A stretch of 64,000 nucleotides of DNA from an archaeon (GTDB lineage: Archaea > Aenigmatarchaeota > Aenigmatarchaeia > QMZP01 > JAFGSV01). The number at the start of each line of letters is the position of its first letter. Positions within the stretch are counted from its first letter, which is position 1. The notes under the pieces were generated by a model. It was not told where the DNA came from, did not search any database, and was given only the letters and a program-made list of their open reading frames with translations. This document shows, in pieces, positions 1,055-16,498 of this stretch. The stretch spans positions 1 through 64,000 of the forward strand of contig JANQNF010000016.1 in the NCBI GenBank assembly GCA_028279705.1. The letters are read 5' to 3'. The position numbers and the translations under genes are program-made.

Positions 1055-1377
1055 TGTTTAGTCGATGGCCTTAAGTGGTGAGAAATTCTCTGTATCATTA
1101 CGTTACCGATGCGGTAACTTAAGCCGCCCTCTTGTGGGGGAACTAGTTTTACTTCGTAACTATTCCAAATTTGACCTTTGGTTATACCAACGATTCGTCC
1201 TATGTCCGCCGATATGCCGCTGAGCGGTCCGCCTGTTTCTATGATAACCATTTCGCCTAAAATTAGTTCGTGTTCAAGCGGAAATGGTTTGGCTACATAG
1301 CTTCTACCGCCAATCCGAATTGTTCCAGTGGCATTGTCGCCTAGGAATTTTTTCAGCGCAAGATTTTTGGTCGACAT
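1051..1377 (-). CDS. hypothetical protein
   Basis: 108 aa ORF, start/stop overlap with neighbours on same strand (operon-like tiling). Confidence 0.45.
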   Translation of the reverse strand: MSTKNLALKKFLGDNATGTIRIGGRSYVAKPFPLEHELILGEMVIIETGGPLSGISADIGRIVGITKGQIWNSYEVKLVPPQEGGLSYRIGNVMIQRISHHLRPSTKQ

Positions 1378-1389
1378 AAAAATAGGGCA

Positions 1390-1761
1390 CTAGGACGTGC
1401 CCTTTGTCTTCGCTTTCTTTACTTTGCGGAAAATACACTGAACCGATGACAGTGGTACGTAAGATGGCTGTCTAGACACAACGCTCTTATTCTGCACCCG
1501 TCCAATGAAAGGCAGAATGTTGATTGTGGTAAAAAACCAATCGTGGAATCCTTGTTCCCAATCGGACTCTGTGATGTATCCGATACGAAACTCGTTCTTG
1601 ATGAAGAATCCGATTACGTCTCCGTCTTCCGGGTCATTCTTCCACTTGTATACAGCCCTATAGACGTTTCCGTCTCCTAGAACTATATACAGCTTTTCTT
1701 TCTTGCAGACCTTGCCTAGAATATTAGCGTAGTGGCCTGCAATTGGGTTTACCTTTGACAT
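1390..1761 (-). CDS. hypothetical protein
   Basis: 123 aa ORF tiled between neighbouring minus-strand genes. Confidence 0.45.
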   Translation of the reverse strand: MSKVNPIAGHYANILGKVCKKEKLYIVLGDGNVYRAVYKWKNDPEDGDVIGFFIKNEFRIGYITESDWEQGFHDWFFTTINILPFIGRVQNKSVVSRQPSYVPLSSVQCIFRKVKKAKTKGTS

Positions 1762-1770
1762 TGTGCTTGT

Positions 1771-3390
1771 TTATACAGCAGCTTCTTCCGCCTGATGCTG
1801 GTCGAGCATGTCTTGCTGGAACTGTCTAAGTTTAGGCGAAAGAACATCAACTTCACCTTTAATTCCATAGCTCGGCTGAACCTTCTGGAAGCTATCGAAT
1901 TCTTCGATGGTTCTCTGAGAGATAGTAGCGAAACTTTCGTTCAGCGGCCTGAAACCTTCGAAGTCAGGGTTGTTGCATCGGCGCAATACGGGGTCAAAGT
2001 ACAACACACGAGCATCTTTGTCATCAGATACTTCCGATGTGTGGAATACCGAAGGACCAGTGAAGCACGCAACACCATCGCGTACTAGAACAGTCTTGCC
2101 CGGCACACTCATCTTTGCCGGAGTGTCGGATAGCTTGCAAACGATTTCATCTTCCGAACCAGCAGCACACAACTTGTATGCGCTTGAGAAGATATCTCGT
2201 GTGGAAGTATTACGCAGCCAGCCACCTACACCAAAGATACCCCAGCCGACGCTGTTGAAACCTTCATCGAATAGACCGCCGAAGACGTCGTCAACCTTGT
2301 GGGGGTTCATCGAGTCGCCCTGAATGAATCGAAGGTTAGTGGCGCTGGCACGCTCTGCTCCATCGTGTAGCCCAGCTTCGTATGCCTGTTGGGCGATAAA
2401 CAAACAGTTCTCGTAGAAGTCTCCGCTGTCGGGCCTAGCTACGATGGTTCCCGCTGCTCGCTGTGCCATGGCTTTCAGATGGTTGCGAACAGCACGGTGG
2501 AAGTTGTAGCAGTCGGCAACATAGCTTGCGATACCGCCATTTGTATCAGCACCAAAGATAGCTTCGTAAGCTTCCTCTTCATTTAGATGGCCCTGAACAA
2601 TACGATGAGCAAGAGCCAAGATGCTAGTTCCTGTCGGACGCTCTGCTCCGCGCTCCATAGCAGCAAAAGCCGCATTGAACGTGTCTGTGCCATGGAACAC
2701 CAGCAGGTGAGCCATGCCGAGCAGCTCAGACTCTTCTGCACAAGAGCTTGCCCGCATACCGAAGTCATGAATGAAGAATCGAGCCATCGCATCGAACTCT
2801 TTGATATCGTCGGTGGTCAACTCATCCATGCCGATGTTGTACTCGTTGTATTTGTTTCTACCAAACTCTTCTCGAATTCGGTTTAACCAATGGCGGCAGA
2901 TGGTGGCACGAGCACTCATGGTGCTAACCATGCCAAGCATGACAGCTTCAATGTGTGCAGCAATTTCGCCAAATCCCTTACCCATTGATTCAACCTGCAC
3001 AACCGGTTCGTACGGGAAGAAAGTCGAACCTTCCGGTAGTGCAGTAATACGAATGGGGAGAAAGCCGTGACATTCATCAACGACTCTTCTCCACGTTTTC
3101 TCAGGGAAATGCAGAGGTCCACCAAAGCTATGGGCTGTCGCCATGAATTCTTTGGCAGCGTCAATGTCTTCGTGAGTAATCCTCTCCCACAGATGACGAC
3201 GAACGAACTCACTCAAGCCGTAGAAGACCATACGACTGTCTTCTGCAACATTAAGCAAATCATCTGAATCTAGAGGAGAAATACGGTTGGTCAGATTGTA
3301 CACTGATTTCTCAACCGCGCGTTCGCCAGCAAACGCTTCACCTGAAATGGTGTAGGCATCTGCCAGCATCGGCAAAGGTACTTTTCTCAT
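1771..3390 (-). CDS. nadV: nicotinamide phosphoribosyltransferase (NAMPT/NadV-like)
   Basis: 539 aa; N-terminal MLADAYTISG-like start, HDFGMR, DSGD and IQGDS motifs as in NAMPT family; SD-like AAGGTAGG upstream. Confidence 0.8.
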   Translation of the reverse strand: MRKVPLPMLADAYTISGEAFAGERAVEKSVYNLTNRISPLDSDDLLNVAEDSRMVFYGLSEFVRRHLWERITHEDIDAAKEFMATAHSFGGPLHFPEKTWRRVVDECHGFLPIRITALPEGSTFFPYEPVVQVESMGKGFGEIAAHIEAVMLGMVSTMSARATICRHWLNRIREEFGRNKYNEYNIGMDELTTDDIKEFDAMARFFIHDFGMRASSCAEESELLGMAHLLVFHGTDTFNAAFAAMERGAERPTGTSILALAHRIVQGHLNEEEAYEAIFGADTNGGIASYVADCYNFHRAVRNHLKAMAQRAAGTIVARPDSGDFYENCLFIAQQAYEAGLHDGAERASATNLRFIQGDSMNPHKVDDVFGGLFDEGFNSVGWGIFGVGGWLRNTSTRDIFSSAYKLCAAGSEDEIVCKLSDTPAKMSVPGKTVLVRDGVACFTGPSVFHTSEVSDDKDARVLYFDPVLRRCNNPDFEGFRPLNESFATISQRTIEEFDSFQKVQPSYGIKGEVDVLSPKLRQFQQDMLDQHQAEEAAV

Positions 3391-3393
3391 AAC

Positions 3394-4488
3394 CTACCTT
3401 TTATCTGTGGACGAGATGCGCTGGAATTTCTCATCCATGGTGGCGAATGAGCACAGCGCACGAAGCGTAGGCTCAATCTTTTCAATGTCAGCTTCGTCAG
3501 TTAGACGATGGAACACCAAGAACTTATTGCCATTTTCTTTCATCGCAGCAATAAAATCTTGATATTCGAAGTTTTCGTAGTACCGTTCCCAGTCTCCGAT
3601 ACGGAGAATAGTATCGAACCCAACTACGATAGTGCTATTGTTTAGCCAGCGAGCTTTGTCGCAGAATCTTGCGTTGTTTGAAACCGCAATCCACTGTACG
3701 GGCTTAAACCCATCAATGGCTCCGACTAACTTTAGATATCTCTCCTGAAATTGAAGAATATCTAGGTCTGCTTTGTCCGCGTTTCGTACGCTCAATTCCA
3801 ACATGACCGACTGGCCGGTAATCTCGTGCGCTTTCTGGGCCATGGCTGCGTGGCCGTCGTGCCACGGATTGAACGACCCCGGGAAAAGAACTACGGGAGC
3901 TAAATCCTTTGGTAGTGCCACGGGTACGAATGAACCGTCGTCAGGTCGTGTGAGATTCATGCGAGAACTGCGTGAATCGAACATTTCCCAAATCAGCGGA
4001 CTAGCTTCGATGTACTGCTTTGTATCGTTGAGCTTATTCATTAGACCCAACACTTCACCTAAAGCTAGGTAGATGTAAGAAGTAACAATCTCTTCTTGCT
4101 CTTCTCTGTAGTAGTCATCGCTGAACTCCCTAGTGTAGTAGAATAGAGAGTTTGTACCGCGAATGGCAATGTGGAAGAAATGGCGGCGACCTTCCCGCTC
4201 GGGACCAGCCTTACGCAGAGTAGCTGTGACACCTACGCCGTAGTCGTTTGAGTCGCAGAGTCGATATGCTTTATCTGCAAGAAGCAAAGCGGCCTCCCGA
4301 GAACAATACTTCTCAGGCTGGCCCGCAAAGCAGTCGAATAGCTCAGAAGCATATGGAACCACAGCGCCATTGAAGACGCTACTAGCGCCACCGGGTGCTA
4401 AAAAGCTATCGATGAACTTAGTGCCGCCTCCTGTAATTGCTACAGAAAACTTCTTACCAGCTTCAATGATTTGTTCGCGCAGATTCAT
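3394..4488 (-). CDS. bifunctional PncC/CinA-C-like domain + NMN adenylyltransferase
   Basis: 364 aa; N-terminal VAITGGG...GASSVFNGAVVPYASE resembles CinA-C/PncC (AESCTGG...GFVTYSNE); C-terminal LFPGSFNPWHDGH is the nucleotidyltransferase (H/T)xGH motif of NMNAT. Confidence 0.75.
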   Translation of the reverse strand: MNLREQIIEAGKKFSVAITGGGTKFIDSFLAPGGASSVFNGAVVPYASELFDCFAGQPEKYCSREAALLLADKAYRLCDSNDYGVGVTATLRKAGPEREGRRHFFHIAIRGTNSLFYYTREFSDDYYREEQEEIVTSYIYLALGEVLGLMNKLNDTKQYIEASPLIWEMFDSRSSRMNLTRPDDGSFVPVALPKDLAPVVLFPGSFNPWHDGHAAMAQKAHEITGQSVMLELSVRNADKADLDILQFQERYLKLVGAIDGFKPVQWIAVSNNARFCDKARWLNNSTIVVGFDTILRIGDWERYYENFEYQDFIAAMKENGNKFLVFHRLTDEADIEKIEPTLRALCSFATMDEKFQRISSTDKR

Positions 4489-4772
4489 TTTTCGTTAATC
4501 CTAACAGCCATCTCTCCTTCCACGTCTTCTAAGATTAGAAAGATGCTGTTTCCGTTTAGAACCGTAATCTTTAGATTGGTGACATGGAGTAAGACAAAGT
4601 CTTTGTTTATCCTAGTCACCGTGAATTTAGATTCAGGTGTTGCTTCGGTGATAGTAGTCCACTCACCGTATTTGGCTTTACTCTCTACAGGCTTGTCTAG
4701 CTTGTAGTCAGTCGGTATATCCATGGTGGCACATCCGACTAGGAGTAGGAGCGCAAGCATTAAAGCTTTCAT
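4485..4772 (-). CDS. putative lipoprotein
   Basis: 95 aa; signal peptide with lipobox LLVGC. Confidence 0.5.
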   Translation of the reverse strand: MKALMLALLLLVGCATMDIPTDYKLDKPVESKAKYGEWTTITEATPESKFTVTRINKDFVLLHVTNLKITVLNGNSIFLILEDVEGEMAVRINEK

Positions 4773-4909
4773 AGTTTAGGACAGGGAAAGGTCAGGTCCG
4801 CTTTTTAACGTACGAAAAGCGGCAAAACGTTTTTCGGGATTCCCTGTATCTCAGTCGGCACTTAGTCCGATACGGCCCTATGTAAGCCGCTCGATATCAT
4901 CCCGAATAA

Positions 4910-4985
4910 TGGTGGCGGGGGTGGGACTCGAACCCACGACCTTCAGCGTATGAGGCTGACGAGCTACCAACTGCTCCACCCCGCG
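4910..4985 (-). tRNA. tRNA-Met (CAT), initiator-like
   Basis: 76 nt cloverleaf on minus strand; anticodon loop CUCAUAC; 5' half CGCGGGGUGGAGCAG identical to E. coli tRNA-fMet; unpaired C1:C72; encoded CCA. Confidence 0.8.
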
Positions 4986-4988
4986 GTC

Positions 4989-5234
4989 TTAATCTTTGAA
5001 GAGGTACGGGTAGTACCACATATAGAGGTATTGTCTGATTTCGTAACCAGAAACTTCCCCGTCATCTATAACAACAATCAATGCGCCTACTACACCAACA
5101 AAAGGTGCAATAGTCCAAGAAATGAGACCGTATTGGAATATAGTTACGATGAATTTGACTAGGAATGTTATAAGTTTTGCGATGAAGTCCATTATCCCGG
5201 AATCTTCTTGTATTTGACGTATTCTGCGTTGCAA
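4989..5234 (-). CDS. small membrane protein
   Basis: 81 aa ORF with hydrophobic segments. Confidence 0.4.
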   Translation of the reverse strand: MQRRIRQIQEDSGIMDFIAKLITFLVKFIVTIFQYGLISWTIAPFVGVVGALIVVIDDGEVSGYEIRQYLYMWYYPYLFKD

Positions 5235-5488
5235 TGTAGCTGCAACTCACCACTAACGGGGTCAACAATCTGACCACGAGAATCCCTACTACGCAGAGCG
5301 GTGAACAGAACATCTCGCTGTGTGACGATGCCGTGCGAGTCGAAATGTTCTAACATTAGTTCGAACGTCTCGGCAGCAGGCCCACCGTGGTCTTTCAACT
5401 TCTTTATGAAAGACATAGCAAGATTGAACTTATCAAACTTTGCGTGTTCTCTGTCGCCCAGACCATTTCTATAGAAAACAATGAACAT
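5192..5488 (-). CDS. hypothetical protein
   Basis: 98 aa ORF between tRNA-Met and tmRNA. Confidence 0.4.
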   Translation of the reverse strand: MFIVFYRNGLGDREHAKFDKFNLAMSFIKKLKDHGGPAAETFELMLEHFDSHGIVTQRDVLFTALRSRDSRGQIVDPVSGELQLHCNAEYVKYKKIPG

Positions 5489-5560
5489 TTGTTATGCCCG
5501 ACGTATTAGGGATATAGTAAAGAAACTCTGTTTTCGCAACCCTATTTCTCGGATTATATT

Positions 5561-5953
5561 TGGTGGAGGTGCCGGGAATCGAACCCGGGTGCTGCATAAG
5601 TGTCGGGGTAGGCTCTACACGTTTATCAGGGTCTTTCACACTAACGCAGTTTGGTATACCCTGCAAACTCACTTCGTCGTCCTTAACGTGGACCCATTCG
5701 CCGGTCTATTTCCCGGTGCCATCTGTCTACTTCCAGCGTCACCCGTATTTCTTTTACCTAGGTGATACAGGATACCTAGCGTCGGAACCTTTAGGCTGCG
5801 ACGAGAGCAGGGGTGCCGAGGAGTGCCTCAGCGTCAGCCATGCTCAAAGAGTTGGGAATGCCAACTATTGGTTTAGTCCGTTTTAAGGTAGCCTCGGACC
5901 AACTACCACGTGCTCCTACTTCGTCTTCTTACCAGTCGATACCTTTCACCCCC
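5561..5953 (-). ncRNA. ssrA: tmRNA (SsrA)
   Basis: minus-strand RNA starting GGGGGUGAAAGGUAUCGAC and ending GGUUCGAUUCCCGGCACCUCCACCA (tRNA-like domain); internal tag reading frame GCU GAC ... GUC GCA GCC UAA giving ADAEALLGTPALVAA. Confidence 0.8.
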
Positions 5954-5959
5954 ATGTAT

Positions 5960-6172
5960 CTATACGTCACTTGTTTCTATCAACCATGGCCATAGTAATG
6001 ACTTGAACATCCTGCGCCATCTGGATTCTTTACATCCAATAGTGCTCACGTAGGAAACCCCAGCAACCACGAAATAAGCACCGATAATTGCACACATGAT
6101 TATCGTAAGCCATTCCTGAACAGACAGGCTGTTGTAATTCATGCTATTATTTATGCCACCCCATACGGGCAA
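5960..6172 (-). CDS. small membrane protein
   Basis: 70 aa ORF, one TM helix; weak. Confidence 0.3.
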   Translation of the reverse strand: MPVWGGINNSMNYNSLSVQEWLTIIMCAIIGAYFVVAGVSYVSTIGCKESRWRRMFKSLLWPWLIETSDV

Positions 6173-6629
6173 CAGTGTTTTCTAGAATCTTGAAAAGCTG
6201 AGCGTCAATACCGAAACGGTCTTTCGCCTTCTTGAGACTCTGCATGATGTTACCGTCGTGCTGACGAGCAGAAGAAGCCTTCCAGTCTACCAGCATCTCG
6301 ATAACATCGAGCAAGTCCATATCGTTTACACCCTCCGGATAATGCTCCGGGTGGTGGGTGTTCTTCGCGTAGTGGTGTTCCAGAGCAGGCTTAAGCAGCT
6401 TAAGCGATTCCTGATACTCTGGACTACCATAGGTCAAGCCAGCCAGTCGGGCGCTGAACTCGTCAAAGAGTTCCTTTTCCGGACTGGATAGCTTTGACTG
6501 GTCGTGTTCCAAAGCCCTCTGCTGAAGGTTCTGAATTACTTCCAGAAGCAGACGTTGGACCATATGAATATGCTCCCACGTTGCAGGACGCGAGTCCTTT
6601 CTGGGCTTCTGTCTGCGTTCTTCGTCCAT
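6147..6629 (-). CDS. hypothetical protein
   Basis: 160 aa ORF, His-rich helical protein. Confidence 0.55.
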   Translation of the reverse strand: MDEERRQKPRKDSRPATWEHIHMVQRLLLEVIQNLQQRALEHDQSKLSSPEKELFDEFSARLAGLTYGSPEYQESLKLLKPALEHHYAKNTHHPEHYPEGVNDMDLLDVIEMLVDWKASSARQHDGNIMQSLKKAKDRFGIDAQLFKILENTVARMGWHK

Positions 6630-6630
6630 G

Positions 6631-6966
6631 TTATTTGATATCGTTGAATTTTGCTCTAGGCATTCTATGCCAGAATCTACCCACTTCCTTAAAAGTCGGT
6701 CTATCTTCTAAGGAAGTAATCATCTCTGTATTGAAACCGCGCTTCTTTCTAAAGCGCATGATGATTTTAACGGGAGTTCTTCTCCCGGGCTCTTTAACCG
6801 AAACTGTTCCTTGTTCAATGCGAACAATTCTATAAAGGGCTCGGAGAGCATGGTTGAATTTGCGGTAATACCGTAGACGCTTGGTTCCATCTTGCTTTAC
6901 TGCATTCATAATGAAGTAAGGCTTGGTAGCGTCTAGGTCCGTCTTTTTTACTGCTCTCGGGTCCAT
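6631..6966 (-). CDS. hypothetical protein
   Basis: 111 aa ORF. Confidence 0.5.
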   Translation of the reverse strand: MDPRAVKKTDLDATKPYFIMNAVKQDGTKRLRYYRKFNHALRALYRIVRIEQGTVSVKEPGRRTPVKIIMRFRKKRGFNTEMITSLEDRPTFKEVGRFWHRMPRAKFNDIK

Positions 6967-7139
6967 CCTTGATTATCCAAATCAATCGGGTTTGGCATTT
7001 TTACGTAAATGTCGGTTGCGACGATTTTACCGTCTTTCTCTAGTCGGGAGACAAGACGACCTGTTTCGTCATAACCGACGAAAAGGACCGCGCTAGGGTT
7101 CTTAGTGTGAACGTATCGTCTTAATTTAGATGGTTTCAT
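6948..7139 (-). CDS. hypothetical protein
   Basis: 63 aa ORF. Confidence 0.35.
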   Translation of the reverse strand: MKPSKLRRYVHTKNPSAVLFVGYDETGRLVSRLEKDGKIVATDIYVKMPNPIDLDNQGWTREQ

Positions 7140-7178
7140 TGATTTGAGCGGTAAGTGTATATTATACCCGAATCTGGA

Positions 7179-7442
7179 TTATATTACACTAACTTTCTCT
7201 TGATTTCTGTGCTGAATCAGCACGCGCTCTACGTCCACCACTCGGCTCCCCCACTGGTTGAATTTGTAGCGGAGTAGATAGATAGAGTCTACGCTCAAAT
7301 CATCTTTGCTGAGTTGGACGTTGAATTTACGTTCTCCCTTCAGTCCAACAACAGACCAGACCTTATAGAGTTCGATTACAACGATTACGTGGAATCCTAA
7401 CTCTTCGGCCTTTTTAACGACGTCTTTAGGGAATAGAGTCAT
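7179..7442 (-). CDS. hypothetical protein
   Basis: 87 aa ORF. Confidence 0.45.
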   Translation of the reverse strand: MTLFPKDVVKKAEELGFHVIVVIELYKVWSVVGLKGERKFNVQLSKDDLSVDSIYLLRYKFNQWGSRVVDVERVLIQHRNQEKVSVI

Positions 7443-7449
7443 GGTTCTC

Positions 7450-7758
7450 CTAGAAACCGCAGAACATCCTCTCTACTTTTCGAATGTCTCGGTTTATTTC
7501 GGTCGAATGCCTACTGAAATACGAAACAGAGCAACGACCGCATTCGCCTTTTCTGGCGTCACTAACCGGTCTTACTTTGCACGAACTGCACATAGGCATG
7601 AGGTCGTCTCCCGGTTTTTCCACTGGTTCCCATTTAGGGCATCCGGGTTTTTGGGGGAGTTTAGTCTTAGCCGCTTTAGCTCTAGCTTTTTCAAGCTGCC
7701 TATCGTAGCGACCTTGTGATGACCGTCTTGGTTTTTTACGCTTGCGTCTTCTGCCCAT
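7450..7758 (-). CDS. basic zinc-ribbon protein
   Basis: internal Met start chosen to avoid overlap with 7736..8122; K/R-rich N-terminus, CSSC...CGRC motif. Confidence 0.4.
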   Translation of the reverse strand: MGRRRKRKKPRRSSQGRYDRQLEKARAKAAKTKLPQKPGCPKWEPVEKPGDDLMPMCSSCKVRPVSDARKGECGRCSVSYFSRHSTEINRDIRKVERMFCGF

Positions 7759-8122
7759 CTTTCTTTCTTTCGCCGCAGGTGGGACACACGGCGTTTCTCT
7801 CGGTGGTAGACTTACTGCCATCCCCATCACTAGACCTAGCAAGAATCTTGAGGTAGCCGTTCCACCGAAGCTGGTTGAGAAATCGTTCAATTTCCCGTGC
7901 TTTCTTTATTTGACGATTCACCCGACGTGTCTGTCGAACACTGGGCGTAATGATGATTTTTCCGTCAGTGGTTTTGTAGACTACGCGCAGTTTGTGCTTC
8001 TTAGCATAGTCTTCAGTTTTATTGACAAGAAAAACCCTACCTTGTTTATTTTTGATGAAGAGATTATCGAACTCTTCTTCGTGAAGACACTCCACACCAT
8101 GTTCATCTTTGAAATAACCCAT
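7736..8122 (-). CDS. hypothetical protein
   Basis: 128 aa ORF with C-terminal CPTCG zinc-ribbon-like motif. Confidence 0.5.
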   Translation of the reverse strand: MGYFKDEHGVECLHEEEFDNLFIKNKQGRVFLVNKTEDYAKKHKLRVVYKTTDGKIIITPSVRQTRRVNRQIKKAREIERFLNQLRWNGYLKILARSSDGDGSKSTTERNAVCPTCGERKKDGQKTQA

Positions 8123-8141
8123 GATACTTCTCCGTGATTGC

Positions 8142-8366
8142 TTAACGCGACCGTTTGTTGGCTCGATTAGCTAGACGCTTAACCTCGTCAGCGTTACGAG
8201 CATCGTTGTTGATGATAGCAATTTCCGGTGCGGTTTTGTGTGAGAAAACCATCATACCGGAATATGCAGTAACGTCGGAGCAATCGACGCAACAACGCGG
8301 AACTTTACCTTCGTCAATGAGTTTGGCTCTGGCTTCTGGAATTTCTCGGCCACATACGCAGTTCAT
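8142..8366 (-). CDS. TraR/DksA-like C4 zinc-finger protein
   Basis: 74 aa; CxxC...CCVDC motif pattern. Confidence 0.5.
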   Translation of the reverse strand: MNCVCGREIPEARAKLIDEGKVPRCCVDCSDVTAYSGMMVFSHKTAPEIAIINNDARNADEVKRLANRANKRSR

Positions 8367-8597
8367 GCATTCTCCTCTACAATTAGATGAACCGTGGAGT
8401 CAAGTTTTTGATGCGCTGGTTTTATACTGTCTGACACACAATTGGTCACAACAGTCCTCGCTTCTCTACTCCTCAACTCCACGGGTTTAGCAGACGCGCT
8501 CACGTTCCTGAAATACAGACAGCTTACGACTATGGTATTTCGTTGGCTTGCCCAAGGCTGTCGCGCGTACTGTCTACTGTGGGCGTTCGGTTTCCAT

Positions 8598-8693
8598 CGG
8601 CAGGGCTCGAACCTGCAATGCAGCACAACGTACTACATCGGTGGCACAGACAGTCCACCTGCGTATACCATAGAGATACACCTTGCTTCCTCA
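8598..8693 (-). other. tRNA-like element (non-canonical)
   Basis: minus-strand T-arm GCAGGUUCGAGCCCUGC followed by acceptor-like CGAUGG; complementary CCAUCG about 120 nt upstream; no canonical D/anticodon arms found. Confidence 0.25.
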
Positions 8694-8720
8694 GTGATAT
8701 CTCAATTCCGCCACGATGGC

Positions 8721-9362
8721 TTAGTAGTGTCTTCCGAGCAAGATATCTTTCAATACCCTCTCCAGTTTTTCAACGCAGATATCGTTCGGCAATGACCGAT
8801 ATTCTACACGACCATCGTGGTGTACGTCGTAGAATCCGGGCCTACGCTTAGCTGCTTTGATTTCGTCTGCGAATGCCTCGTCCATCTTCTTGATGAAAGG
8901 AACAAAATCCCACATACTGTTAAAGGGGACGGTGACTCCGTTTTTCGTGTGGGTCAGCGGAGCGGTGATGTTCACATGAAAAGCCGCGATACCTTCTGTC
9001 ATCCTATTACGATGACACGTGTGTCCGTAAAGGTTACGTTCGGTAACGAGGTCTTTCTTAAAGCGACGTCTGGCTAAGTCGCGCAGCTTGCGAGAGATGG
9101 GCATTACGGGTGCTAGCACCGGCTCCCAAGTGAATGTTCCTTCGGGAGTGACCCTTGAACAATTCTTCAAGATACGTGAAAGCCTGACATCCTCTACGTT
9201 CAGAAGATGAATGGCTTCCAGCACATCGTGAGACGGCCTGCTGCGTACTTCGAACAACCACCCACATTCGTCGTGTGGTGCGTGGCTCGGCACGAGAGTA
9301 ATCTCTCCGTCGCTTCTCCGACAGAAATATTCTCGCTCAAAGCCGAACTTGTATCTACTCAT
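8721..9362 (-). CDS. hypothetical protein (candidate GS-like amidoligase)
   Basis: 213 aa; N-terminal KFGFEREYF resembles the Mg-binding first strand of GCS2/YbdK-type carboxylate-amine ligases; weak. Confidence 0.5.
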   Translation of the reverse strand: MSRYKFGFEREYFCRRSDGEITLVPSHAPHDECGWLFEVRSRPSHDVLEAIHLLNVEDVRLSRILKNCSRVTPEGTFTWEPVLAPVMPISRKLRDLARRRFKKDLVTERNLYGHTCHRNRMTEGIAAFHVNITAPLTHTKNGVTVPFNSMWDFVPFIKKMDEAFADEIKAAKRRPGFYDVHHDGRVEYRSLPNDICVEKLERVLKDILLGRHY

Positions 9363-9621
9363 CGTGAATTTCTCTCGTTCTTTCCAATACTACAGGGATT
9401 TCTTCCGGCAAATTGGAGTCTAGGTCCATGTTGGCGATTATACGCAGTCTACGGTAGAACGTATACTTAGGTTTGGTTGACCTAAGTATAGATTTTACCT
9501 CATTCCACAAAGACTCGGGCTCGTCTTCTTCGAAAGGAATGAAAGATGCTTTGTCATTCAAAGTGTTGCGTACTTCGTAGCAAAGCAACCCATTGACCTT
9601 TAGTTGGCGGACTTGTATCAT
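9355..9621 (-). CDS. hypothetical protein
   Basis: internal Met start (MIQVRQLK) chosen because upstream part of ORF covers terminator hairpins and a small membrane peptide gene in another frame. Confidence 0.4.
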   Translation of the reverse strand: MIQVRQLKVNGLLCYEVRNTLNDKASFIPFEEDEPESLWNEVKSILRSTKPKYTFYRRLRIIANMDLDSNLPEEIPVVLERTREIHDE

Positions 9622-9782
9622 CGCATAAAGAAAGCCCAAGCTAGGAGGAAAGCACCAAAGAATGCTAGTCCACCCAGATGGGGTTCGTTCATGTTTTCGT
9701 AGCTGATGGCTACAGAGATTAATGCAGCGCCAATCCACAGCAATGCATTTAGCAGAAATTTCTTCATAGCATCTCTCTAAAA

Positions 9783-9815
9783 TTAGAAAGGGGGAGCCTT
9801 TCGGCTCCCCCAATA
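9783..9815 (-). terminator. putative intrinsic terminator
   Basis: GC hairpin GGGGGAGCC-UUUC-GGCUCCCCC followed on minus strand by UUUCUAAUUUU. Confidence 0.45.
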
Positions 9816-9912
9816 GGGCGCTTAGCGCCTCCACCACTCGGTTTTAAGTTCCGAGAAACTGGGCCTGCCGAATATCGGCAGGGTCCACCACTGAGTTTAT
9901 AGTTCTCAGAAA

Positions 9913-10905
9913 CTACTTGCCGGTGAGCCCGAGTTCGAGCAGTAGCGGCGAGTTGGAAGGCAGAATACGGATGTTGGCGAAGTTCTGCGCGAGAATCGGC
10001 AGGGCTTCGGCCTTCTTGCGACGTTCGTACAGTTCGACGTCGAACGTCATTGCGTCCTTGGCCTCCTGTAGCTTTCTCGCAGCATCGGCTTTAGACTGGG
10101 CGATGGTGACCTGAAGCTGTGCTTCGGCAGCTTGGTCCTCACGACGCTTGTCGTTCGCCAGCTTCTTGTTGGCCTCGGCAACGATTGCAGCTTCAGAGAC
10201 AACTTGGTCGTCGATAGCCGCCTGAATCTTCGCGTTGTCGTAGGTTAGACCCTCGGACGAGCCGAACTGGGTAATGGTGATACCCATGACTTCGTACTCA
10301 GCGATAAGGGCCGTCTTGGCCGCCTTGAAGATGGTCGTCTTGGACTTCTTGCAGTCTTCCAGATTCAGCTTGCCGAAGGCGTCGGATACGAGAGACAGCG
10401 CCGTGCTGCGAATCGGTCCGTCGATGATATCCTCCAACTGCTGACCACCGAAGTAGTACAGGAAGCGGGCGGTGTCCTTTTCGTCGATGCGCGCCTGAAT
10501 GGTCGCACCAACGCCGAAACCAACCGAGTCGAGAGACTCGACGTGTAGCTTCTGGAAGGCTTCGCTTGTGCCGCTGTCCGAATCGTCGGTCCACTCTCTG
10601 TGGACGGGCGCTCGTGAAATCCTGATGACACGAGCGGTAGGAATCCACTCGTAGCTGAACCATGCGCGGCCAGTGCTACGCTTGCGCTGCGGAAGGATGA
10701 TTCGCTTTGCGCCGACCTTCTTCTCTTCAAGAAACTCGATGCTCTCGAACTTGGCCTGACCGCTCTTCGTGTCACCTTCCAGCTTGATGAGGAAAGCGGT
10801 CTCGTCGGGCTCGACTTCGACGGCCTTCTCCACCTGATAGGCACCACAGCCTACCGAAGTCACCGCAAAGATAGCGATGACGAGTGAAAGTAGAAACTTT
10901 CGCAT
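9913..10905 (-). CDS. SPFH/band-7 domain lipoprotein
   Basis: 330 aa; signal peptide with lipobox VGC; central SPFH-like region and long Ala/Glu/Lys-rich coiled coil; locally high GC; AGGAG SD 12 nt upstream. Confidence 0.7.
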   Translation of the reverse strand: MRKFLLSLVIAIFAVTSVGCGAYQVEKAVEVEPDETAFLIKLEGDTKSGQAKFESIEFLEEKKVGAKRIILPQRKRSTGRAWFSYEWIPTARVIRISRAPVHREWTDDSDSGTSEAFQKLHVESLDSVGFGVGATIQARIDEKDTARFLYYFGGQQLEDIIDGPIRSTALSLVSDAFGKLNLEDCKKSKTTIFKAAKTALIAEYEVMGITITQFGSSEGLTYDNAKIQAAIDDQVVSEAAIVAEANKKLANDKRREDQAAEAQLQVTIAQSKADAARKLQEAKDAMTFDVELYERRKKAEALPILAQNFANIRILPSNSPLLLELGLTGK

Positions 10906-10925
10906 TTTTCTGTCTGCTCCTAAAT

Positions 10926-11189
10926 TTAGGCGTTCTTAACGGGAACGAGCTTCCGGTATACGACCGGAGCCCAGAGGCAAATTAGCCAGAGCGCCATCAG
11001 GGCGAGCACGTAGCCCGAGTAATCCCGTGACGCAACACGAGCGACACCATACTCCAAGTCACCACCGTTAAGCTGGTCAACTGCGAGGTCGGCCTGCTCT
11101 TGCGGCATGAAGTTGTTGTACACGCTCATGAAGAATGCCGTAACCAGAACAATGGCTACGGTCCAGAAGATACGTCTGCGATTTGTCAT
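10926..11189 (-). CDS. small membrane protein
   Basis: internal Met start MTNRRRIFW; two hydrophobic helices. Confidence 0.45.
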   Translation of the reverse strand: MTNRRRIFWTVAIVLVTAFFMSVYNNFMPQEQADLAVDQLNGGDLEYGVARVASRDYSGYVLALMALWLICLWAPVVYRKLVPVKNA

Positions 11190-11193
11190 TGTT

Positions 11194-11586
11194 TTAAAAC
11201 TCAACTGGGTCAAAGATACAGACCACATCTCCTCTAGAGATGGTGAATTCTGCAATAGGTAGTTCGGATAGACTGCGGGTATCATCCTTATGAAGGATAG
11301 GAATAGCCCTGACCTTCGTCACTACTTTTTGTCGATACCGACCTTGGAAGTAGCTACTCGTATTAACGATACGAGTGATGATGAGATTAGGCTCACCGTG
11401 CAACTCCACGATATGACCAATCAACTGACCATTACATAGTTCTGCATCAATGAACTCATATATTGGTTCGTAGACTGTCTCACCGAATGGGAGTTGGACG
11501 CGAAAGTCGTCCTTACAAATTGCTCGGTAGCCTAAAGCTTCTTGAATAGACAAAGGCTGTCCGCTTGATGTAATTCTAGGAAGCAT
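11194..11586 (-). CDS. hypothetical protein
   Basis: 130 aa ORF. Confidence 0.5.
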   Translation of the reverse strand: MLPRITSSGQPLSIQEALGYRAICKDDFRVQLPFGETVYEPIYEFIDAELCNGQLIGHIVELHGEPNLIITRIVNTSSYFQGRYRQKVVTKVRAIPILHKDDTRSLSELPIAEFTISRGDVVCIFDPVEF

Positions 11587-11968: not shown

Positions 11969-11978
11969 AAGGTAGGAG

Positions 11979-12641: not shown

Positions 12642-12650
12642 TTAACGAAG

Positions 12651-13641: not shown

Positions 13642-13643
13642 GT

Positions 13644-13961
13644 CTAGTTCTTCTTTAGAATTTGCTGTAGTAACTCCCGATTAGGAGTCAGGGAGTCGAT
13701 ATAAGAAGCCGCGGCGAAGCCGAGGCAAATCAGCACGATAATGACCGCAACAATCTTGATGCCGTTGTAGTCGTTATCGTCGGTTTTCTTTACGATGTAG
13801 TTTGAGAACCACCAACCGAAAATCAGCATGAATACTGCAAAAGCTGCAAATGCAATTGCGGTAGCGATATCCGAAAGGTGCTGTTCTTTGGCTAGGACGT
13901 GCCAACCTGATTCGGCTTTTTCACCAACTTGTCTAAGAAACTCAGCTAGTTTTTCATCCAT
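13644..13961 (-). CDS. membrane protein
   Basis: 105 aa with two TM helices. Confidence 0.45.
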   Translation of the reverse strand: MDEKLAEFLRQVGEKAESGWHVLAKEQHLSDIATAIAFAAFAVFMLIFGWWFSNYIVKKTDDNDYNGIKIVAVIIVLICLGFAAASYIDSLTPNRELLQQILKKN

Positions 13962-15030
13962 CTCTCAGTCTCGAACGGACAACCCGAAAAATGTGATGCC
14001 GAATATCGTGTCCGTCTAGCAGCGAGAACATGGCGCTGCGGAAATCCGGCTCGATGTTTTTGTTCACCTCAAATGCGAAATCGCGGCGGGAGCCGCCAGC
14101 CATATGTTTGACGGACTCCCATGCCGCCATTATCTGTCGCTCGATATCCCACAACATTGCACGAAGCTGAGCGTAGATATCGTCGAACTGTACCTGTAGT
14201 TCCTTCGGAAGTGAGAGTAGAACAGACCTATACTCTCCACCTTCCACCATATCCAGAATCTTTTTCTGGCTGCGCATATCGAGCGCCTTATGGATACGGA
14301 GGTACCACGGGTTCTTGATTTTTACTCGGAAGCCGCAGTCCCAGCGGCATACGAAGCCTTCCGTTCCCTCTTCGAAAGGCATCTCTTCGATTTTATCGTA
14401 GCCGTTCGTCTTGAGAATCATAGTGCCGAACTTCTTCTCATTATAGACGCGACGGGGTTCCATCCCCATCTGGTCGGCTAGAATCGGAATGCGACCGGCA
14501 GGCTGCTCTTGGCCCGTGTGCTTGTTACGCACAGCAAGCAGCCTAAGACCTTCGAAGTCACCGTAGTCTACCACAACCCTGTTGGCCGGGTAGATGATTT
14601 CCGTCATGATGGTATCGTTCGGGTCCATCTTGGAGAAATCATATCGCGGCAGTAGAATCTCTCTGGCATAGTTGGCTTGGTCTGATTCCAAACTGCCCTT
14701 TGTTGAGACATTCCACTGACCGTTGTGGAAGAACACCACGCCCAATGAACCGTCGAGCTTTTCTTCGGCTACATACCGGCCTTCCGGTAGATTCTTGGGT
14801 TCGGTCTCCGACCGCTCAAACAAGTTGAAAAACTTGTCAAAGGGCCGCGCAACGATGTTGCCATCTGCATCTAAGATTAGACCACGAGCCATGCGCGTGG
14901 TGGCATTCCAGATACGGTTGACGACAGCGTTCTGTGTGTACACGTAGATGAATAGGTCACCGAACCGACGTTCGTAGACCAAATCATCCTTAGCGGCGCG
15001 TCGGAGTTGATTTTGGAGAGGTGTGCTCAT
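13954..15030 (-). CDS. ATP-dependent RNA ligase (Rnl-like nucleotidyltransferase)
   Basis: 358 aa; motif I VAEEKLDGS (KxDG), motif IV EGFVCR, motif V KIKNPWY; order typical of RNA/DNA ligase nucleotidyltransferase domain. Confidence 0.75.
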   Translation of the reverse strand: MSTPLQNQLRRAAKDDLVYERRFGDLFIYVYTQNAVVNRIWNATTRMARGLILDADGNIVARPFDKFFNLFERSETEPKNLPEGRYVAEEKLDGSLGVVFFHNGQWNVSTKGSLESDQANYAREILLPRYDFSKMDPNDTIMTEIIYPANRVVVDYGDFEGLRLLAVRNKHTGQEQPAGRIPILADQMGMEPRRVYNEKKFGTMILKTNGYDKIEEMPFEEGTEGFVCRWDCGFRVKIKNPWYLRIHKALDMRSQKKILDMVEGGEYRSVLLSLPKELQVQFDDIYAQLRAMLWDIERQIMAAWESVKHMAGGSRRDFAFEVNKNIEPDFRSAMFSLLDGHDIRHHIFRVVRSRLRDG

Positions 15031-15126
15031 TGTCCAGTTTACGCCAGTATGGATGCATACTTTCCACTACTCGGCGCGTTGCTCTTTTCTTTTGTACTTT
15101 CTCGAAGTACAGGTCTCTATATCTTC

Positions 15127-15366
15127 TTACCACCGAATTGTCACCCTGTGAAGTCTTCCTTTGAAGATTTGCTCGGTGACGTCGAATCCGTCTTCTTTCA
15201 GTTGAGACACAGCGCGAGCACCATGTTTGTACTCGTCACCAAGAAAATCGTGCTCGTAAGTATTACTAGCACTACGACCTTTGCGCAGGCGAAGCTGGTC
15301 GTAGACCTTTTTCATGGCGATTTCAAAACTATCGCCACGCATTTCTGCTGCGGTGATGCGACTCAT
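15127..15366 (-). CDS. hypothetical protein
   Basis: 79 aa; start overlaps stop of upstream peptide gene (ATGA). Confidence 0.45.
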   Translation of the reverse strand: MSRITAAEMRGDSFEIAMKKVYDQLRLRKGRSASNTYEHDFLGDEYKHGARAVSQLKEDGFDVTEQIFKGRLHRVTIRW

Positions 15367-15486
15367 TCGTCACCCTTTTTGGAATTACCACCTTTGATGG
15401 CTTGGATTAGATAAGCCAAAGCTGGAATTCCGAAAAGCGCCATAATGACGATGAACTTGATTAAGTCGTTCATATCTTCAAACATT
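15362..15486 (-). CDS. small hydrophobic peptide (about 41 aa)
   Basis: MFEDMNDLIKFIVIMALFGIPALAYLIQAIKGGNSKKGDE; start overlaps stop of HD/kinase gene (TAATG) and stop overlaps next start; coordinates approximate. Confidence 0.3.
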
Positions 15487-16498
15487 ACGCAGTCCTCGTG
15501 ATTTCTACATCGTCGAAACCTTCTGAAGTCAGTTTCTTTGCGACGTGTTCATCATCTGCAATTTTACCAAGCCCAGCTACCAAGTCTCCATGGAACTGGA
15601 CGAGAACTTTATCTGGAATGAGCAGTCGATGCCGGTGAGGCTTCCCGTGCTCATCTCTATTTCTCTGAATGCACACTTCAAGTGGAGCGTACACCAAGTG
15701 AGCTTTGACGGTGATGCCGGGGAACTCTTCCCTCAACCACTCCAGCATGTCCCGTCTACGCCTGACGGTGTTGTGACAGTTGTCAACGACGATGCCTTGT
15801 CCTCGACCCAGTCCCATTCGAATGTGCTGGCGCTGTACTTTAATTGCCGAGTTTTCCTGATGACGCCATTGACCCGGACCAATACCGAGAACTTCTCGGA
15901 TATCATCCCGGCTTGTACGTTCGAAGCCCGGCTTCCACCACTCACCGTAGTCTCGACTGGCGTCAACGATGGCTTTACTCATGGTGGATTTACCAGCCGC
16001 TTGAATGCCAACCATCAGGATGACCTGATTTCTTCTCGGGTCGAGTTCGTCTAGCGTAGCGTAGATTTCGTCCCACGGCATGTGCTTGCCGTCTTCCCTG
16101 CGTCCCGCGTGGTCGTAGTTGTTGAGTCTCATCAACTCGTCAAACCATTCGTGCTGTTCCAAGTCTTTGCGCTTGTGAGCACGCATTTTGCCCGACGTAT
16201 AATCGTAGGGCTTCATGTGGTTCTCAACCAACCACCTAACTTTAGGCGGAACATCATCGGCAATCATCAGCGCACCGCGATAGGCGTGTTGAGCCCACGC
16301 ACGGGCATCGTTTTTATTCTTGCCGATATCGTGCAGTAGGGATGCGAAGATAACATCCCATGTATCACTAGCTTCGATAGCTAGAGTGGTCACCTGACCC
16401 AGATGGTTTTTCACATTGGGCTCAGGGTGAAACTCTTTTTTAATGTCGGCGTAGTTTGCGGTGTTGTCCACCATACGCCGCAGTCTAGCGGAAATCAT
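15485..16498 (-). CDS. HD-domain phosphohydrolase fused to P-loop polynucleotide kinase-like domain
   Basis: 337 aa; N-terminal HD motif LLHDIGK; C-terminal Walker A GIQAAGKST; an end-healing architecture (phosphoesterase + kinase) next to RNA ligase. Confidence 0.7.
   Translation of the reverse strand: MISARLRRMVDNTANYADIKKEFHPEPNVKNHLGQVTTLAIEASDTWDVIFASLLHDIGKNKNDARAWAQHAYRGALMIADDVPPKVRWLVENHMKPYDYTSGKMRAHKRKDLEQHEWFDELMRLNNYDHAGRREDGKHMPWDEIYATLDELDPRRNQVILMVGIQAAGKSTMSKAIVDASRDYGEWWKPGFERTSRDDIREVLGIGPGQWRHQENSAIKVQRQHIRMGLGRGQGIVVDNCHNTVRRRRDMLEWLREEFPGITVKAHLVYAPLEVCIQRNRDEHGKPHRHRLLIPDKVLVQFHGDLVAGLGKIADDEHVAKKLTSEGFDDVEITRTA

What the first reader, a model, noticed from the sequence alone, without database searches (positions are those of the whole stretch)
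5561..5953. Phage-encoded tmRNA with atypical tag peptide
The RNA has a canonical tRNA-like 3' domain (GGUUCGAUUCCCGGCACCUCCACCA) and a 5' acceptor strand. The internal reading frame ends ...PALVAA-UAA rather than the common ...ALAA, predicting tag ADAEALLGTPALVAA. It lies between two small phage ORFs, not in a host context, so it is not an integration-site remnant. A phage tmRNA could rescue ribosomes stalled by defence RNases acting on phage mRNAs, or retarget tagged proteins.
Basis: partly seen in the sequence, partly recalled or inferred. Interest (0 to 1): 0.6.

Follow-up and report, generated by a model that had tools for sequence, protein, structure and literature searches.

The report
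Phage tmRNA with long conserved tag
An uncultured large phage carries its own complete ribosome-rescue RNA (tmRNA), a known kind of phage gene, but its tag is 23 residues long rather than the 15 first proposed, and its front part, not its end, is the conserved part.

Summary
Window 5561-5953 (minus strand) is a full-length one-piece tmRNA: Rfam RF00023 gives 88.4 bits against a threshold of 47, E = 5.6e-33. It lies in a phage that has a terminase, a portal, an Rnl1 RNA ligase, NAD-salvage genes, six tRNAs and an RNase P-like RNA. ARAGORN misses the gene at default settings.

Three related uncultured contigs carry the same tmRNA. Across the four copies, 18 of 48 tested base pairs show compensatory changes, and G3·U70 is always kept. 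Conservation starts exactly at G+1 and stops at CCA. The gene is therefore under selection and is not an att remnant.

The resume codon is the GGC that follows an invariant UAGUU, which gives GIPNSLSMADAEALLGTPALVAA. Five of the six variable codon columns in the first 16 codons are purely synonymous, including Ser TCN/AGT and Leu TTG/CTN. The C-terminal tail differs between relatives: TPALVAA, NAVAV, TDALVLA, SDVLAVA.

No SmpB gene was found in the window. Phage tmRNAs are already known, in mycobacteriophages, Bacillus phage G and huge phages. Bxz1's tmRNA also has a long, odd tag. This is a new member of a known kind, of modest interest.

The parts
5561..5953 (-). tmRNA gene, 393 nt, standard one-piece form. 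The 5' end is G at 5953 and the encoded 3' CCA ends at 5561.
   Evidence: Rfam RF00023, 88.4 bits, full model. In the four-locus alignment, conservation begins at G+1 and ends at CCA.
5947..5953 (-). Acceptor stem, 5' strand GGGGGUG. The third base G forms G3·U70.
   Evidence: 7 of 7 pairs in all four sequences. Positions 4 and 6 covary. G·U at position 3 in 4 of 4.
5561..5571 (-). Acceptor stem, 3' strand CACCUCC, followed by discriminator A and encoded CCA.
5572..5588 (-). T arm: CCGGG-UUCGAUU-CCCGG.
   Evidence: 5 pairs, 2 of them with compensatory changes.
5875..5907 (-). Pseudoknot PK1. Stem 1 is GGUAG/CUACC and stem 2 is GGUCCG/CGGACU.
   Evidence: 8 of 11 pairs show compensatory changes. 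In L010 stem 1 is CCGGG/CCCGG.
5863..5867 (-). Frame-setting motif UAGUU, immediately 5' of the resume codon. It corresponds to E. coli U85-A86-G87-U88-C89.
   Evidence: Invariant in four sequences. Role of UAGUC and A86 in E. coli: PMC2481249.
5791..5862 (-). Tag reading frame: resume codon GGC, 23 codons (GIPNSLSMADAEALLGTPALVAA), then UAA.
5850..5866 (-). Predicted hairpin AGUUGG-CAUUC-CCAACU, which encloses the resume codon.
   Evidence: RNAalifold and RNAfold, -5.1 kcal/mol. The sequence is invariant apart from one loop position and one closing-pair mismatch in L006, so there is no covariation test.
5815..5832 (-). Predicted hairpin GCUGAGG-CACU-CCUCGGC inside the tag frame.
   Evidence: -9.6 kcal/mol. 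The only changes in the stem are G-C to G·U.
5780..5803 (-). Helix 5, with the stop codon UAA in its loop.
   Evidence: Rfam alignment; -10 kcal/mol.
5742..5779 (-). Pseudoknot PK2. Stem a is CUAGGU/ACCUAG and stem b is CCUGUAU/AUACGGG.
   Evidence: Stem a: 2 of 6 pairs compensatory. Stem b: different complementary sequences in each relative, read by eye.
5627..5718 (-). PK3/PK4 region: two hairpins at 5699-5718 and 5679-5693, and a possible pseudoknot at 5627-5668.
   Evidence: Complementary strands located. The topology was not resolved and the Rfam posterior probability is low here.
6147..6629 (-). Upstream neighbour, a DUF5662 (PF18907) protein. It served as the syntenic anchor for finding relatives.
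   Evidence: Homologues 73-76% identical sit next to the tmRNA in L005 and L006.
4910..4985 (-). tRNA-Met (CAU) downstream, on the same strand.
   Evidence: L010 also has a tRNA-Met downstream of its tmRNA.
13954..16498 (-). RNA-repair pair: a T4 Rnl1-type RNA ligase (13954-15030) and an HD + P-loop kinase (AAA_33) protein (15485-16498).
   Evidence: The same pair, plus RlaP, lies near the tmRNA in L010.

Best explanation
This is a functional, phage-encoded, one-piece tmRNA.

Shown here: it has every sequence and structure hallmark of the family, and it is kept by selection in a lineage of uncultured large phages.

Inferred mechanism:
- The RNA is transcribed with the surrounding minus-strand genes. 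No conserved promoter was found.
- It is cut at G+1 by RNase P. Its 3' CCA is already encoded.
- The host alanyl-tRNA synthetase charges it with alanine through G3·U70.
- It is delivered by SmpB to ribosomes stalled on broken mRNAs. SmpB would come from the host, since none is in the window.
- Translation resumes at GGC, positioned by the UAGUU motif.
- The ribosome adds Ala + GIPNSLSMADAEALLGTPALVAA and terminates at UAA.
- The ribosome is released, and the tagged fragment is handed to host proteases through its aliphatic C-terminus.

The N-terminal 16 residues of the tag are under peptide-level selection. They probably bind an adaptor or a protease. The phage benefits because translation keeps running when mRNAs and tRNAs are cut during infection. 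This is the same logic as its neighbouring tRNA genes and Rnl1/kinase RNA-repair genes.
For: - Family match: RF00023 at 88.4 bits (threshold 47) over the full model.
- Relatives: three contigs carry the same RNA, namely L005 (97.8 bits), L006 (90.3 bits) and L010 (71.8 bits).
- Structure: on the extracted helices P1, P2a-c, both PK1 stems, PK2 stem a and the T arm, 99.5% of cells pair. 18 of 48 pairs have compensatory changes, no shuffle of 500 reaches this, and slid controls give 0-3. G3·U70 is present in 4 of 4.
- Gene limits: conservation starts at G+1 and ends at CCA, and the flanks are unconserved.
- Tag start: UAGUU + GGC is invariant and corresponds to the E. coli UAGUC frame-setting motif (PMC2481249). 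ARAGORN calls tags starting GIPNSLSM in L005 and L006, and in the window at a relaxed threshold.
- Peptide selection: in the first 16 codons, 6 columns vary and 5 of them only synonymously, including Ser TCT/TCA/AGT and Leu TTG/CTA/CTG. Random substitutions are all synonymous in 0.3% of trials (4 changes) and 0.005% (7 changes).
- Phage context: terminase and portal, six tRNAs, Rnl1 and an HD-kinase. The same module is in L010.
Against: - There is no expression or aminoacylation data.
- ARAGORN at default does not call the gene, and the Rfam score is modest with low alignment confidence across PK2-PK4.
- The resume codon sits inside a predicted 6-bp hairpin. In E. coli, pairing around the resume codon was suggested to impair function (PMC2481249).
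- No SmpB gene was found among 54 ORFs of the window, and the host is unknown, so the partner proteins are assumed.
- The C-terminal residues differ among relatives (VAA, VAV, VLA, AVA). In bacterial tags these residues are the part that ClpX reads. Degradation is therefore an assumption.
- The helix strands used were chosen by hand to pair, which inflates the percentage paired. It does not inflate the compensatory counts against the slid controls.
Confidence: 0.8

Rival explanations
1. The RNA works as a tmRNA, but the tag is not a simple degradation signal. Its conserved N-terminal 16 residues are read by a phage-encoded or special host factor. The factor would retarget, sequester or mark the truncated proteins. 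The variable aliphatic tail would then be of secondary importance.
For: The conservation pattern is the reverse of the bacterial one. The N-terminal part is under peptide-level selection, while the last 5-7 residues vary in sequence and length. The exact motif found no bacterial tmRNA in one genome per species. Bxz1's phage tmRNA likewise has a long acidic tag, ATDTDATVTDAEIEAFFAEEAAALV, which I recall (not checked here) to be unlike its host's tag.
Against: All four tails remain Ala/Val/Leu-rich, as expected of a C-terminal degron. N-terminal parts of bacterial tags are also read by ordinary adaptors such as SspB (established knowledge, not tested here). No candidate reader protein was identified in the window.
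Confidence: 0.2
2. The RNA acts as a decoy. It titrates host SmpB or AlaRS and blocks host trans-translation, as proposed for the TLD-only tmRNA of mycobacteriophage DS6A.
For: A tRNA-like-domain-only molecule similar to the DS6A tmRNA strongly inhibits tmRNA (PMC4131195). The DS6A form is reported to inhibit endogenous tmRNA in E. coli (PMC11915505). The resume codon is buried in a predicted hairpin.
Against: The whole mRNA-like part is kept: PK1, the UAGUU motif, an open 21-23-codon frame with a stop in all four sequences, and synonymous-only variation. A decoy would not need a translated frame.
Confidence: 0.05
3. One reading: translation resumes at the GCU after AUG (window 5838) and gives the 15-residue tag ADAEALLGTPALVAA.
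For: GCN (Ala) is the commonest resume codon in bacteria (established knowledge). The frame and the C-terminus are the same as in the longer tag.
Against: There is no UAGUY motif in front of that GCU. Codons 2, 5 and 6 upstream of it vary only synonymously, including a Ser TCN-to-AGT switch. In L010 that codon is GAC, not GCN. Rfam and ARAGORN both place the start at GGC.
Confidence: 0.04
4. The sequence is a passenger: a recently captured host ssrA gene, or the remnant of an integration site, with no function in the phage.
For: tmRNA genes are common phage integration sites (PMC3029335).
Against: The gene is full length, not a 3' fragment. The 3' end has no second copy in the window. Four diverged phage contigs keep it with compensatory changes, and their flanks are unrelated. 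The phage has no close cultured relative and no integrase was seen near the gene.
Confidence: 0.02

Closest known systems
Standard one-piece bacterial tmRNA (ssrA; Rfam RF00023), e.g. E. coli tmRNA with tag ANDENYALAA
   Same: Acceptor stem with G3·U70 and ACCA. T arm. Long P2 helix. PK1 upstream of the frame. A UAGUY motif directly before a G-initial resume codon. A short open frame ending in aliphatic residues. A stop codon in helix 5. At least one downstream pseudoknot.
   Different: The tag has 23 codons, against a most frequent length of 10 (PMC11915505). The conserved part is the N-terminal 16 residues rather than the C-terminal ALAA, and the tail varies among relatives. The resume codon lies in a predicted hairpin. 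The gene is in a phage with no smpB nearby.
tmRNAs of cluster C mycobacteriophages (Bxz1, Catera, ET08 and others), Wildcat and Bacillus phage G
   Same: A full-length tmRNA inside a large lytic-type phage genome, next to tRNA genes (PMC4131195; PMC1475703). The tag is long, acidic and non-canonical with an aliphatic end: Bxz1 has ATDTDATVTDAEIEAFFAEEAAALV.
   Different: blastn found no similarity to any phage record. The large terminase subunit is only about 25% identical to any cultured phage. The tag sequence is unrelated except for a short DAE motif. Here the gene travels with an Rnl1/HD-kinase RNA-repair module and an RNase P-like RNA.
tmRNAs reported in huge phages from metagenomes (Al-Shayeb et al. 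2020, PMC7162821)
   Same: An uncultured large phage carrying tRNAs, a tmRNA and other translation-related genes. The reported role is rescue of stalled ribosomes.
   Different: That survey identified tmRNAs with ARAGORN, which misses this gene at default settings. Some of those phages also encode SmpB, and none was seen here. The source contig here is about 176 kb, below the 200-kb 'huge' limit.
TLD-only tmRNA of mycobacteriophage DS6A
   Same: A phage-encoded relative of tmRNA (PMC4131195, PMC11915505).
   Different: The DS6A form has no tag frame and is thought to inhibit trans-translation. The RNA here keeps a selected tag frame.

Membership tests
tmRNA, standard one-piece (RF00023) | Covariance-model score at or above the curated gathering score, over the full model | tested here: met
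   88.4 bits against 47, model positions 1-374, E = 5.6e-33
tmRNA, standard one-piece (RF00023) | tRNA-Ala-like acceptor stem with G3·U70, discriminator A and 3' CCA | tested here: met
   GGGGGUG/CACCUCC + ACCA. G·U at position 3 in 4 of 4 sequences. Positions 4 and 6 covary.
tmRNA, standard one-piece (RF00023) | T arm with a GUUCRANUC-type loop | tested here: met
   CCGGG-UUCGAUU-CCCGG, with 2 compensatory pairs
tmRNA, standard one-piece (RF00023) | Long helix P2 joining the tRNA-like domain to the mRNA-like part | tested here: met
   19 pairs in three segments, 4 of them with compensatory changes
tmRNA, standard one-piece (RF00023) | Pseudoknot PK1 just upstream of the tag frame | tested here: met
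   Two stems of 5 and 6 bp. 8 of 11 pairs are compensatory across the four sequences.
tmRNA, standard one-piece (RF00023) | Frame-setting upstream motif (UAGUC in E. coli, with A86) directly before the resume codon | tested here: met
   UAGUU-GGC is invariant in 4 of 4. The motif's role is taken from PMC2481249. Its function here was not tested.
tmRNA, standard one-piece (RF00023) | Short open tag frame that is actually decoded | tested here: met
   21-23 codons with a stop in 4 of 4. 5 of 6 variable codon columns in the first 16 codons are purely synonymous. This is indirect evidence of translation. There is no protein data.
tmRNA, standard one-piece (RF00023) | Tag ends in a conserved aliphatic degron (…ALAA-like) | tested here: inconclusive
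   The window tag ends LVAA. The relatives end AVAV, LVLA and LAVA. The tails are aliphatic but not conserved. Protease recognition was not tested.
tmRNA, standard one-piece (RF00023) | Stop codon in or next to helix 5, followed by pseudoknots PK2-PK4 | tested here: inconclusive
   Helix 5 and PK2 are present. The PK3/PK4 region has hairpins, but its topology was not resolved and the Rfam posterior probability is low there.
tmRNA, standard one-piece (RF00023) | Works with the partner protein SmpB | tested here: inconclusive
   No SmpB (PF01668) hit among 54 ORFs of the window. Only 64 kb of the roughly 176-kb genome was seen, and the host is unknown.
tmRNA, standard one-piece (RF00023) | Alanylation and trans-translation activity | not testable with these tools
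   Needs biochemistry or genetics.
Phage-encoded tmRNA (as in Bxz1-like mycobacteriophages, phage G, huge phages) | The gene lies inside a virus genome, not in flanking host DNA | tested here: met
   Terminase, portal, Rnl1 and NAMPT PHROG/Pfam hits on both sides of the gene. The same RNA is present in three other phage-like contigs.
Integration-site (att) remnant of host ssrA | Only the 3' part of ssrA is present, duplicated as a direct repeat and lying next to an integrase | tested here: not met
   Full-length match. Single copy of the 3' end. No integrase family among the Pfam hits of the region.

The most novel reading that the evidence does not exclude
The phage tmRNA adds a phage-specific tag. 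Its conserved 16-residue N-terminal segment, GIPNSLSM(A/D)DAEALLG, would be the functional signal, read by a dedicated adaptor, protease or other factor. The phage would then control the fate of every truncated protein made during infection, rather than simply topping up host ribosome rescue.
Probability: 0.2. Interest if true: 0.6.

Novelty: new member of a known kind. Interest (0 to 1): 0.33.

Why it matters
Phage tmRNAs have been catalogued for twenty years, but the papers read here report no test of their role in infection or of why their tags differ from canonical bacterial ones. This lineage gives a clean comparative signal: the tag is translated, and its N-terminal part, not its C-terminal degron, is what selection keeps. 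That turns the vague idea that 'phage tmRNA helps translation' into a testable question about who reads the tag.

There is also a practical point. ARAGORN at default misses this gene, so phage annotation pipelines that use ARAGORN for tmRNA calls (the Pharokka paper surfaced but was not read) probably under-count phage tmRNAs.

The gene sits in a block of tRNAs, an RNase P-like RNA and Rnl1/kinase RNA-repair genes. This fits a coordinated answer to host nucleases that attack tRNA and mRNA.

Tried and rejected
- blastn (distant mode) of the tmRNA and megablast of window 1-20000 against 50,697 phage records: no match.
- Scans of viral contigs with the terminase and with three exact tmRNA motifs: no true relative. 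The single hits L009 and L016 carry no tmRNA.
- Metagenome scan with AATAGTTGGCATYCCCAAC: 6 hits, of which only L010 is a tmRNA. The others are chance matches inside protein-coding DNA.
- The same motif against one genome per bacterial species, to find a donor or host ssrA: two Calothrix hits, neither a tmRNA. No host could be inferred.
- Exact look-up of the window's DUF5662 protein, and of its 100% identical database twin on a 175,863-bp NCBI contig: not retrievable. The rest of the genome could therefore not be searched for smpB.
- More distant DUF5662 neighbourhoods (L001, L002-L004, L007, L008, L129, L130): no tmRNA by Rfam or by nhmmer.
- The 98-aa ORF downstream of the tmRNA as a second anchor: it is not homologous to the ORF in that position in L005 and L006, so the idea was dropped.
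- A full-length custom covariance model was not built, because the alignment exceeds the 400-column limit. nhmmer was used instead.
- PK3/PK4 topology: hairpins were found, but I could not fix a pseudoknot register common to all four sequences.
- No sigma-70-like promoter or terminator on the minus strand near the gene, and no conserved upstream sequence.

Full report
**Observation.** The Rfam model for standard tmRNA (RF00023) matches window 5953 to 5561 on the minus strand over its full length. The score is 88.4 bits against a gathering score of 47, E = 5.6e-33. The minus-strand sequence begins GGGGGUG and ends GGGUUCGAUUCCCGGCACCUCCACCA. The first seven bases pair with CACCUCC, including a G·U pair at the third position, followed by A and an encoded CCA. 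The 26-nt 3' end occurs once in the window even when three mismatches are allowed. Run locally at an 80% threshold, it reports a tmRNA with misplaced ends and the tag GIPNSLSMADAEALLGTPALVAA. The RNA is therefore real and at the stated coordinates, but a covariance model was needed to see it.

**Context.** The window is phage DNA.
- It encodes a large terminase subunit (50747-52615) and a portal protein (52651-54804).
- It encodes a T4 Rnl1-type RNA ligase (13954-15030), a nicotinamide phosphoribosyltransferase (1771-3390), a cytidylyltransferase-like/CinA-like protein (3394-4488) and a glutamine amidotransferase (206-1054).
- It holds six tRNA genes and a match to bacterial RNase P RNA.
- Genes from 1 to about 45.5 kb run on the minus strand, as does the tmRNA.
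- The immediate neighbours are a DUF5662 gene (6147-6629) upstream and a 98-aa ORF (5192-5488) downstream, followed by tRNA-Met.
- The terminase is only about 25% identical to that of any cultured phage, and no phage record matches at the DNA level.
- A protein identical to the DUF5662 gene product lies on an NCBI contig of 175,863 bp. That contig is probably the source of the window, but I could not retrieve it.

**Relatives.** Homologues of the DUF5662 neighbour led to two short contigs with a tmRNA in the same position. L005 scores 97.8 bits and L006 scores 90.3 bits. A metagenome scan with a motif from the tag region gave L010, at 71.8 bits. L010 lacks the DUF5662 neighbour. It does share with the window the amidotransferase, nearby tRNAs, Rnl1, an HD + P-loop kinase protein, and an RlaP RNA-repair protein. 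More distant DUF5662 neighbourhoods carry tRNAs but no tmRNA.

**Is it a selected RNA gene?** In the four-sequence alignment with flanks, conservation starts exactly at the first G and stops at CCA. The flanks are unrelated. I extracted the strands of eight helices from each sequence: the acceptor stem, three segments of P2, both stems of PK1, stem a of PK2, and the T arm. I counted pairs on that alignment.
- 99.5% of 192 cells form standard pairs.
- 18 of 48 pairs have changes on both sides.
- Every helix has at least one compensatory pair.
- No shuffle of 500 reaches the observed values, and sliding the partners by 1-3 columns gives 0-3 such pairs.

The strands were picked by hand to pair, so the percentage paired is inflated. 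The compensatory counts against the slid controls are not inflated. PK1 is the clearest case: GGUAG/CUACC in three sequences becomes CCGGG/CCCGG in L010. G3·U70, the alanine identity pair, is kept in all four. A decaying pseudogene or an att remnant would not behave like this.

**The tag.** Four lines of evidence place the resume codon at GGC (window 5860-5862), eight codons upstream of the proposed GCU.
1. The Rfam alignment puts the consensus resume position there.
2. The five bases before it are UAGUU, invariant in all four sequences. They correspond to E. coli UAGUC, in which A86 is the main determinant of frame choice (PMC2481249).
3. ARAGORN at default calls tags starting GIPNSLSM in L005 and L006, and does so in the window when relaxed.

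Over the first 16 codons, six columns vary and five of them are purely synonymous. The sixth is Ala to Asp in L010. In simulations on the window sequence, four random substitutions are all synonymous in 0.3% of trials, and seven in 0.005%. The four tags are:
- window: GIPNSLSMADAEALLGTPALVAA
- L005: GIPNSLSMADAEALLGNAVAV
- L006: GIPNSLSMADAEALLGTDALVLA
- L010: GIPNSLSMDDAEALLGSDVLAVA

The N-terminal 16 residues are held at the peptide level. The last 5-7 residues change in sequence and length but stay Ala/Val/Leu-rich. In bacterial tags the C-terminal ALAA is the best-conserved part (established knowledge), so the pattern here is inverted. The ending LVAA is not remarkable in itself, because the Caulobacter tag AANDNFAEEFAVAA also ends in VAA (papers found).

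**RNA structure inside the frame.** Two hairpins are predicted in the tag region. One is AGUUGG-CAUUC-CCAACU, which encloses the resume codon. The other is GCUGAGG-CACU-CCUCGGC. Degenerate third positions inside their stems are either invariant or change only between G-C and G·U, while about half of the unpaired third positions vary (read). This suggests an extra RNA-level constraint, but there is no true covariation to prove it. A hairpin over the resume codon is a mild argument against efficient decoding, since similar pairing was proposed to explain an inactive E. coli mutant (PMC2481249). Helix 5 holds the stop codon in its loop. Stem b of PK2 has different complementary sequences in each relative. 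I could not fix the topology of the PK3/PK4 region.

**Partners.** No SmpB family hit was found among the 10 largest ORFs or among 44 further minus-strand ORFs. Only 64 kb of roughly 176 kb was visible, so the phage may still encode SmpB elsewhere. Otherwise it relies on the host protein. The host is unknown. A search of one genome per bacterial species for the tag-region motif found only two chance hits in Calothrix and no tmRNA.

**Mechanism.**
- Shown: a complete tmRNA architecture, selection on its helices, selection on the tag peptide starting at or before codon 2-5, and a phage context rich in tRNA and RNA-repair genes.
- Inferred: co-transcription with neighbouring genes and processing at G+1, alanylation by host AlaRS through G3·U70, SmpB-dependent entry into stalled ribosomes, resumption at GGC, addition of Ala plus 23 residues, termination, and proteolysis of the product.
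- Inferred benefit: ribosomes are kept free when mRNAs or tRNAs are cut during infection. The nearby Rnl1 and HD-kinase genes, and the same module in L010, point to this.

I put 0.8 on 'functional trans-translating tmRNA with the 23-residue tag'. I am much less certain about what happens to the tagged proteins.

**Rivals.**
- A decoy that blocks host trans-translation, as suggested for the TLD-only DS6A RNA (PMC4131195, PMC11915505). This is unlikely, because a decoy needs no conserved translated frame.
- A passenger or att remnant. This is excluded by the full length, the single copy and the covariation.
- The 15-residue tag. This is disfavoured by the four lines of evidence above.
- A tag with a special, phage-directed meaning. 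This remains open, and it is the most novel reading the evidence does not exclude.

**Comparison with what is known.** Phage tmRNAs are established.
- Eight mycobacteriophages, Bacillus phage G and DS6A were listed in 2014 (PMC4131195).
- Bxz1, Catera and Wildcat were reported in 2006 (PMC1475703).
- Huge phages from metagenomes were reported in 2020 (PMC7162821).

I ran ARAGORN on Bxz1 and obtained the tag ATDTDATVTDAEIEAFFAEEAAALV. It is 25 residues long and acidic, with an aliphatic end that is not LAA. A long, odd tag is therefore itself a known trait of phage tmRNAs. What this locus adds is a new uncultured lineage, comparative proof that the tag is decoded and selected in its N-terminal part, and a warning that ARAGORN-based pipelines miss it.

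**Verdict.** It is a new member of a known kind. Interest is modest (0.33), lifted slightly by the inverted conservation pattern of the tag.

Noticed in passing
window 22520-22891 (-): Full-length match to bacterial RNase P RNA class A (171 bits, threshold 100) inside the phage, next to tRNA-Lys. In the alignment the P4 5' strand and CR-I motif (GGAAAGUCCGG) are deleted, and a ~75-nt insertion sits in a distal helix. No CCGGG that could pair with the retained 3' strand ACAGAACCCGGCUUAU is present. Catalytic competence is therefore doubtful.
   Followed up: partly
L021, L028, L032, L043, L047, L063, L065, L083 (IMG/VR contigs of 101-463 kb): The RNase P motif ACAGAACCCGGCTTA occurs in 109 viral contigs. 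In 8 of the 11 large contigs checked, Rfam confirms a class A RNase P RNA (103-280 bits) embedded in tRNA arrays. A literature search turned up no paper on phage-encoded RNase P RNA.
   Followed up: partly
window 1771-4488 (-): A nicotinamide phosphoribosyltransferase gene (NAMPT, 539 aa) lies next to a cytidylyltransferase-like/CinA-like protein (364 aa). This is a likely NAD+ salvage pair of the kind phages use against NAD-depleting defences. That role is from memory and was not checked.
   Followed up: no
window 13954-16498 (-); L010 8393-11865: A T4 Rnl1-type RNA ligase lies next to an HD + AAA_33 (P-loop kinase) protein. L010 has the same pair plus an RlaP protein. A HAD_SAK_2 'Swiss Army Knife RNA repair' domain also hits one window ORF that I did not locate.
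   Followed up: partly
L002/L003/L004 (Logan SRR267868xx contigs): More distant relatives with the DUF5662 gene encode a ribosomal protein S21 homologue and a PTH2 peptidyl-tRNA hydrolase domain protein. They also encode a PolX/PHP polymerase and a NAPRTase, but have no tmRNA.
   Followed up: no
window 16891-17976 (-) and other ORFs: One ORF is a radical SAM protein. Other window ORFs hit GGACT (gamma-glutamyl cyclotransferase-like), DUF7873 (E = 4e-75), DUF5658, Metallophos and a methyltransferase. Only the radical SAM and HD proteins were assigned to coordinates.
   Followed up: no
L068 1-209 (IMG/VR contig of 203 kb): Another large viral contig has the 3' part of a tmRNA (55.8 bits, cut by the locus edge) at the head of an array of more than 25 tRNA genes.
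   Followed up: no
L012-L015, L017, L018: The 19-nt tag-region motif AATAGTTGGCATYCCCAAC recurs in unrelated metagenome contigs and in two Calothrix genomes, where neither Rfam nor ARAGORN finds a tmRNA. These look like chance matches rather than RNA homologues.
   Followed up: yes
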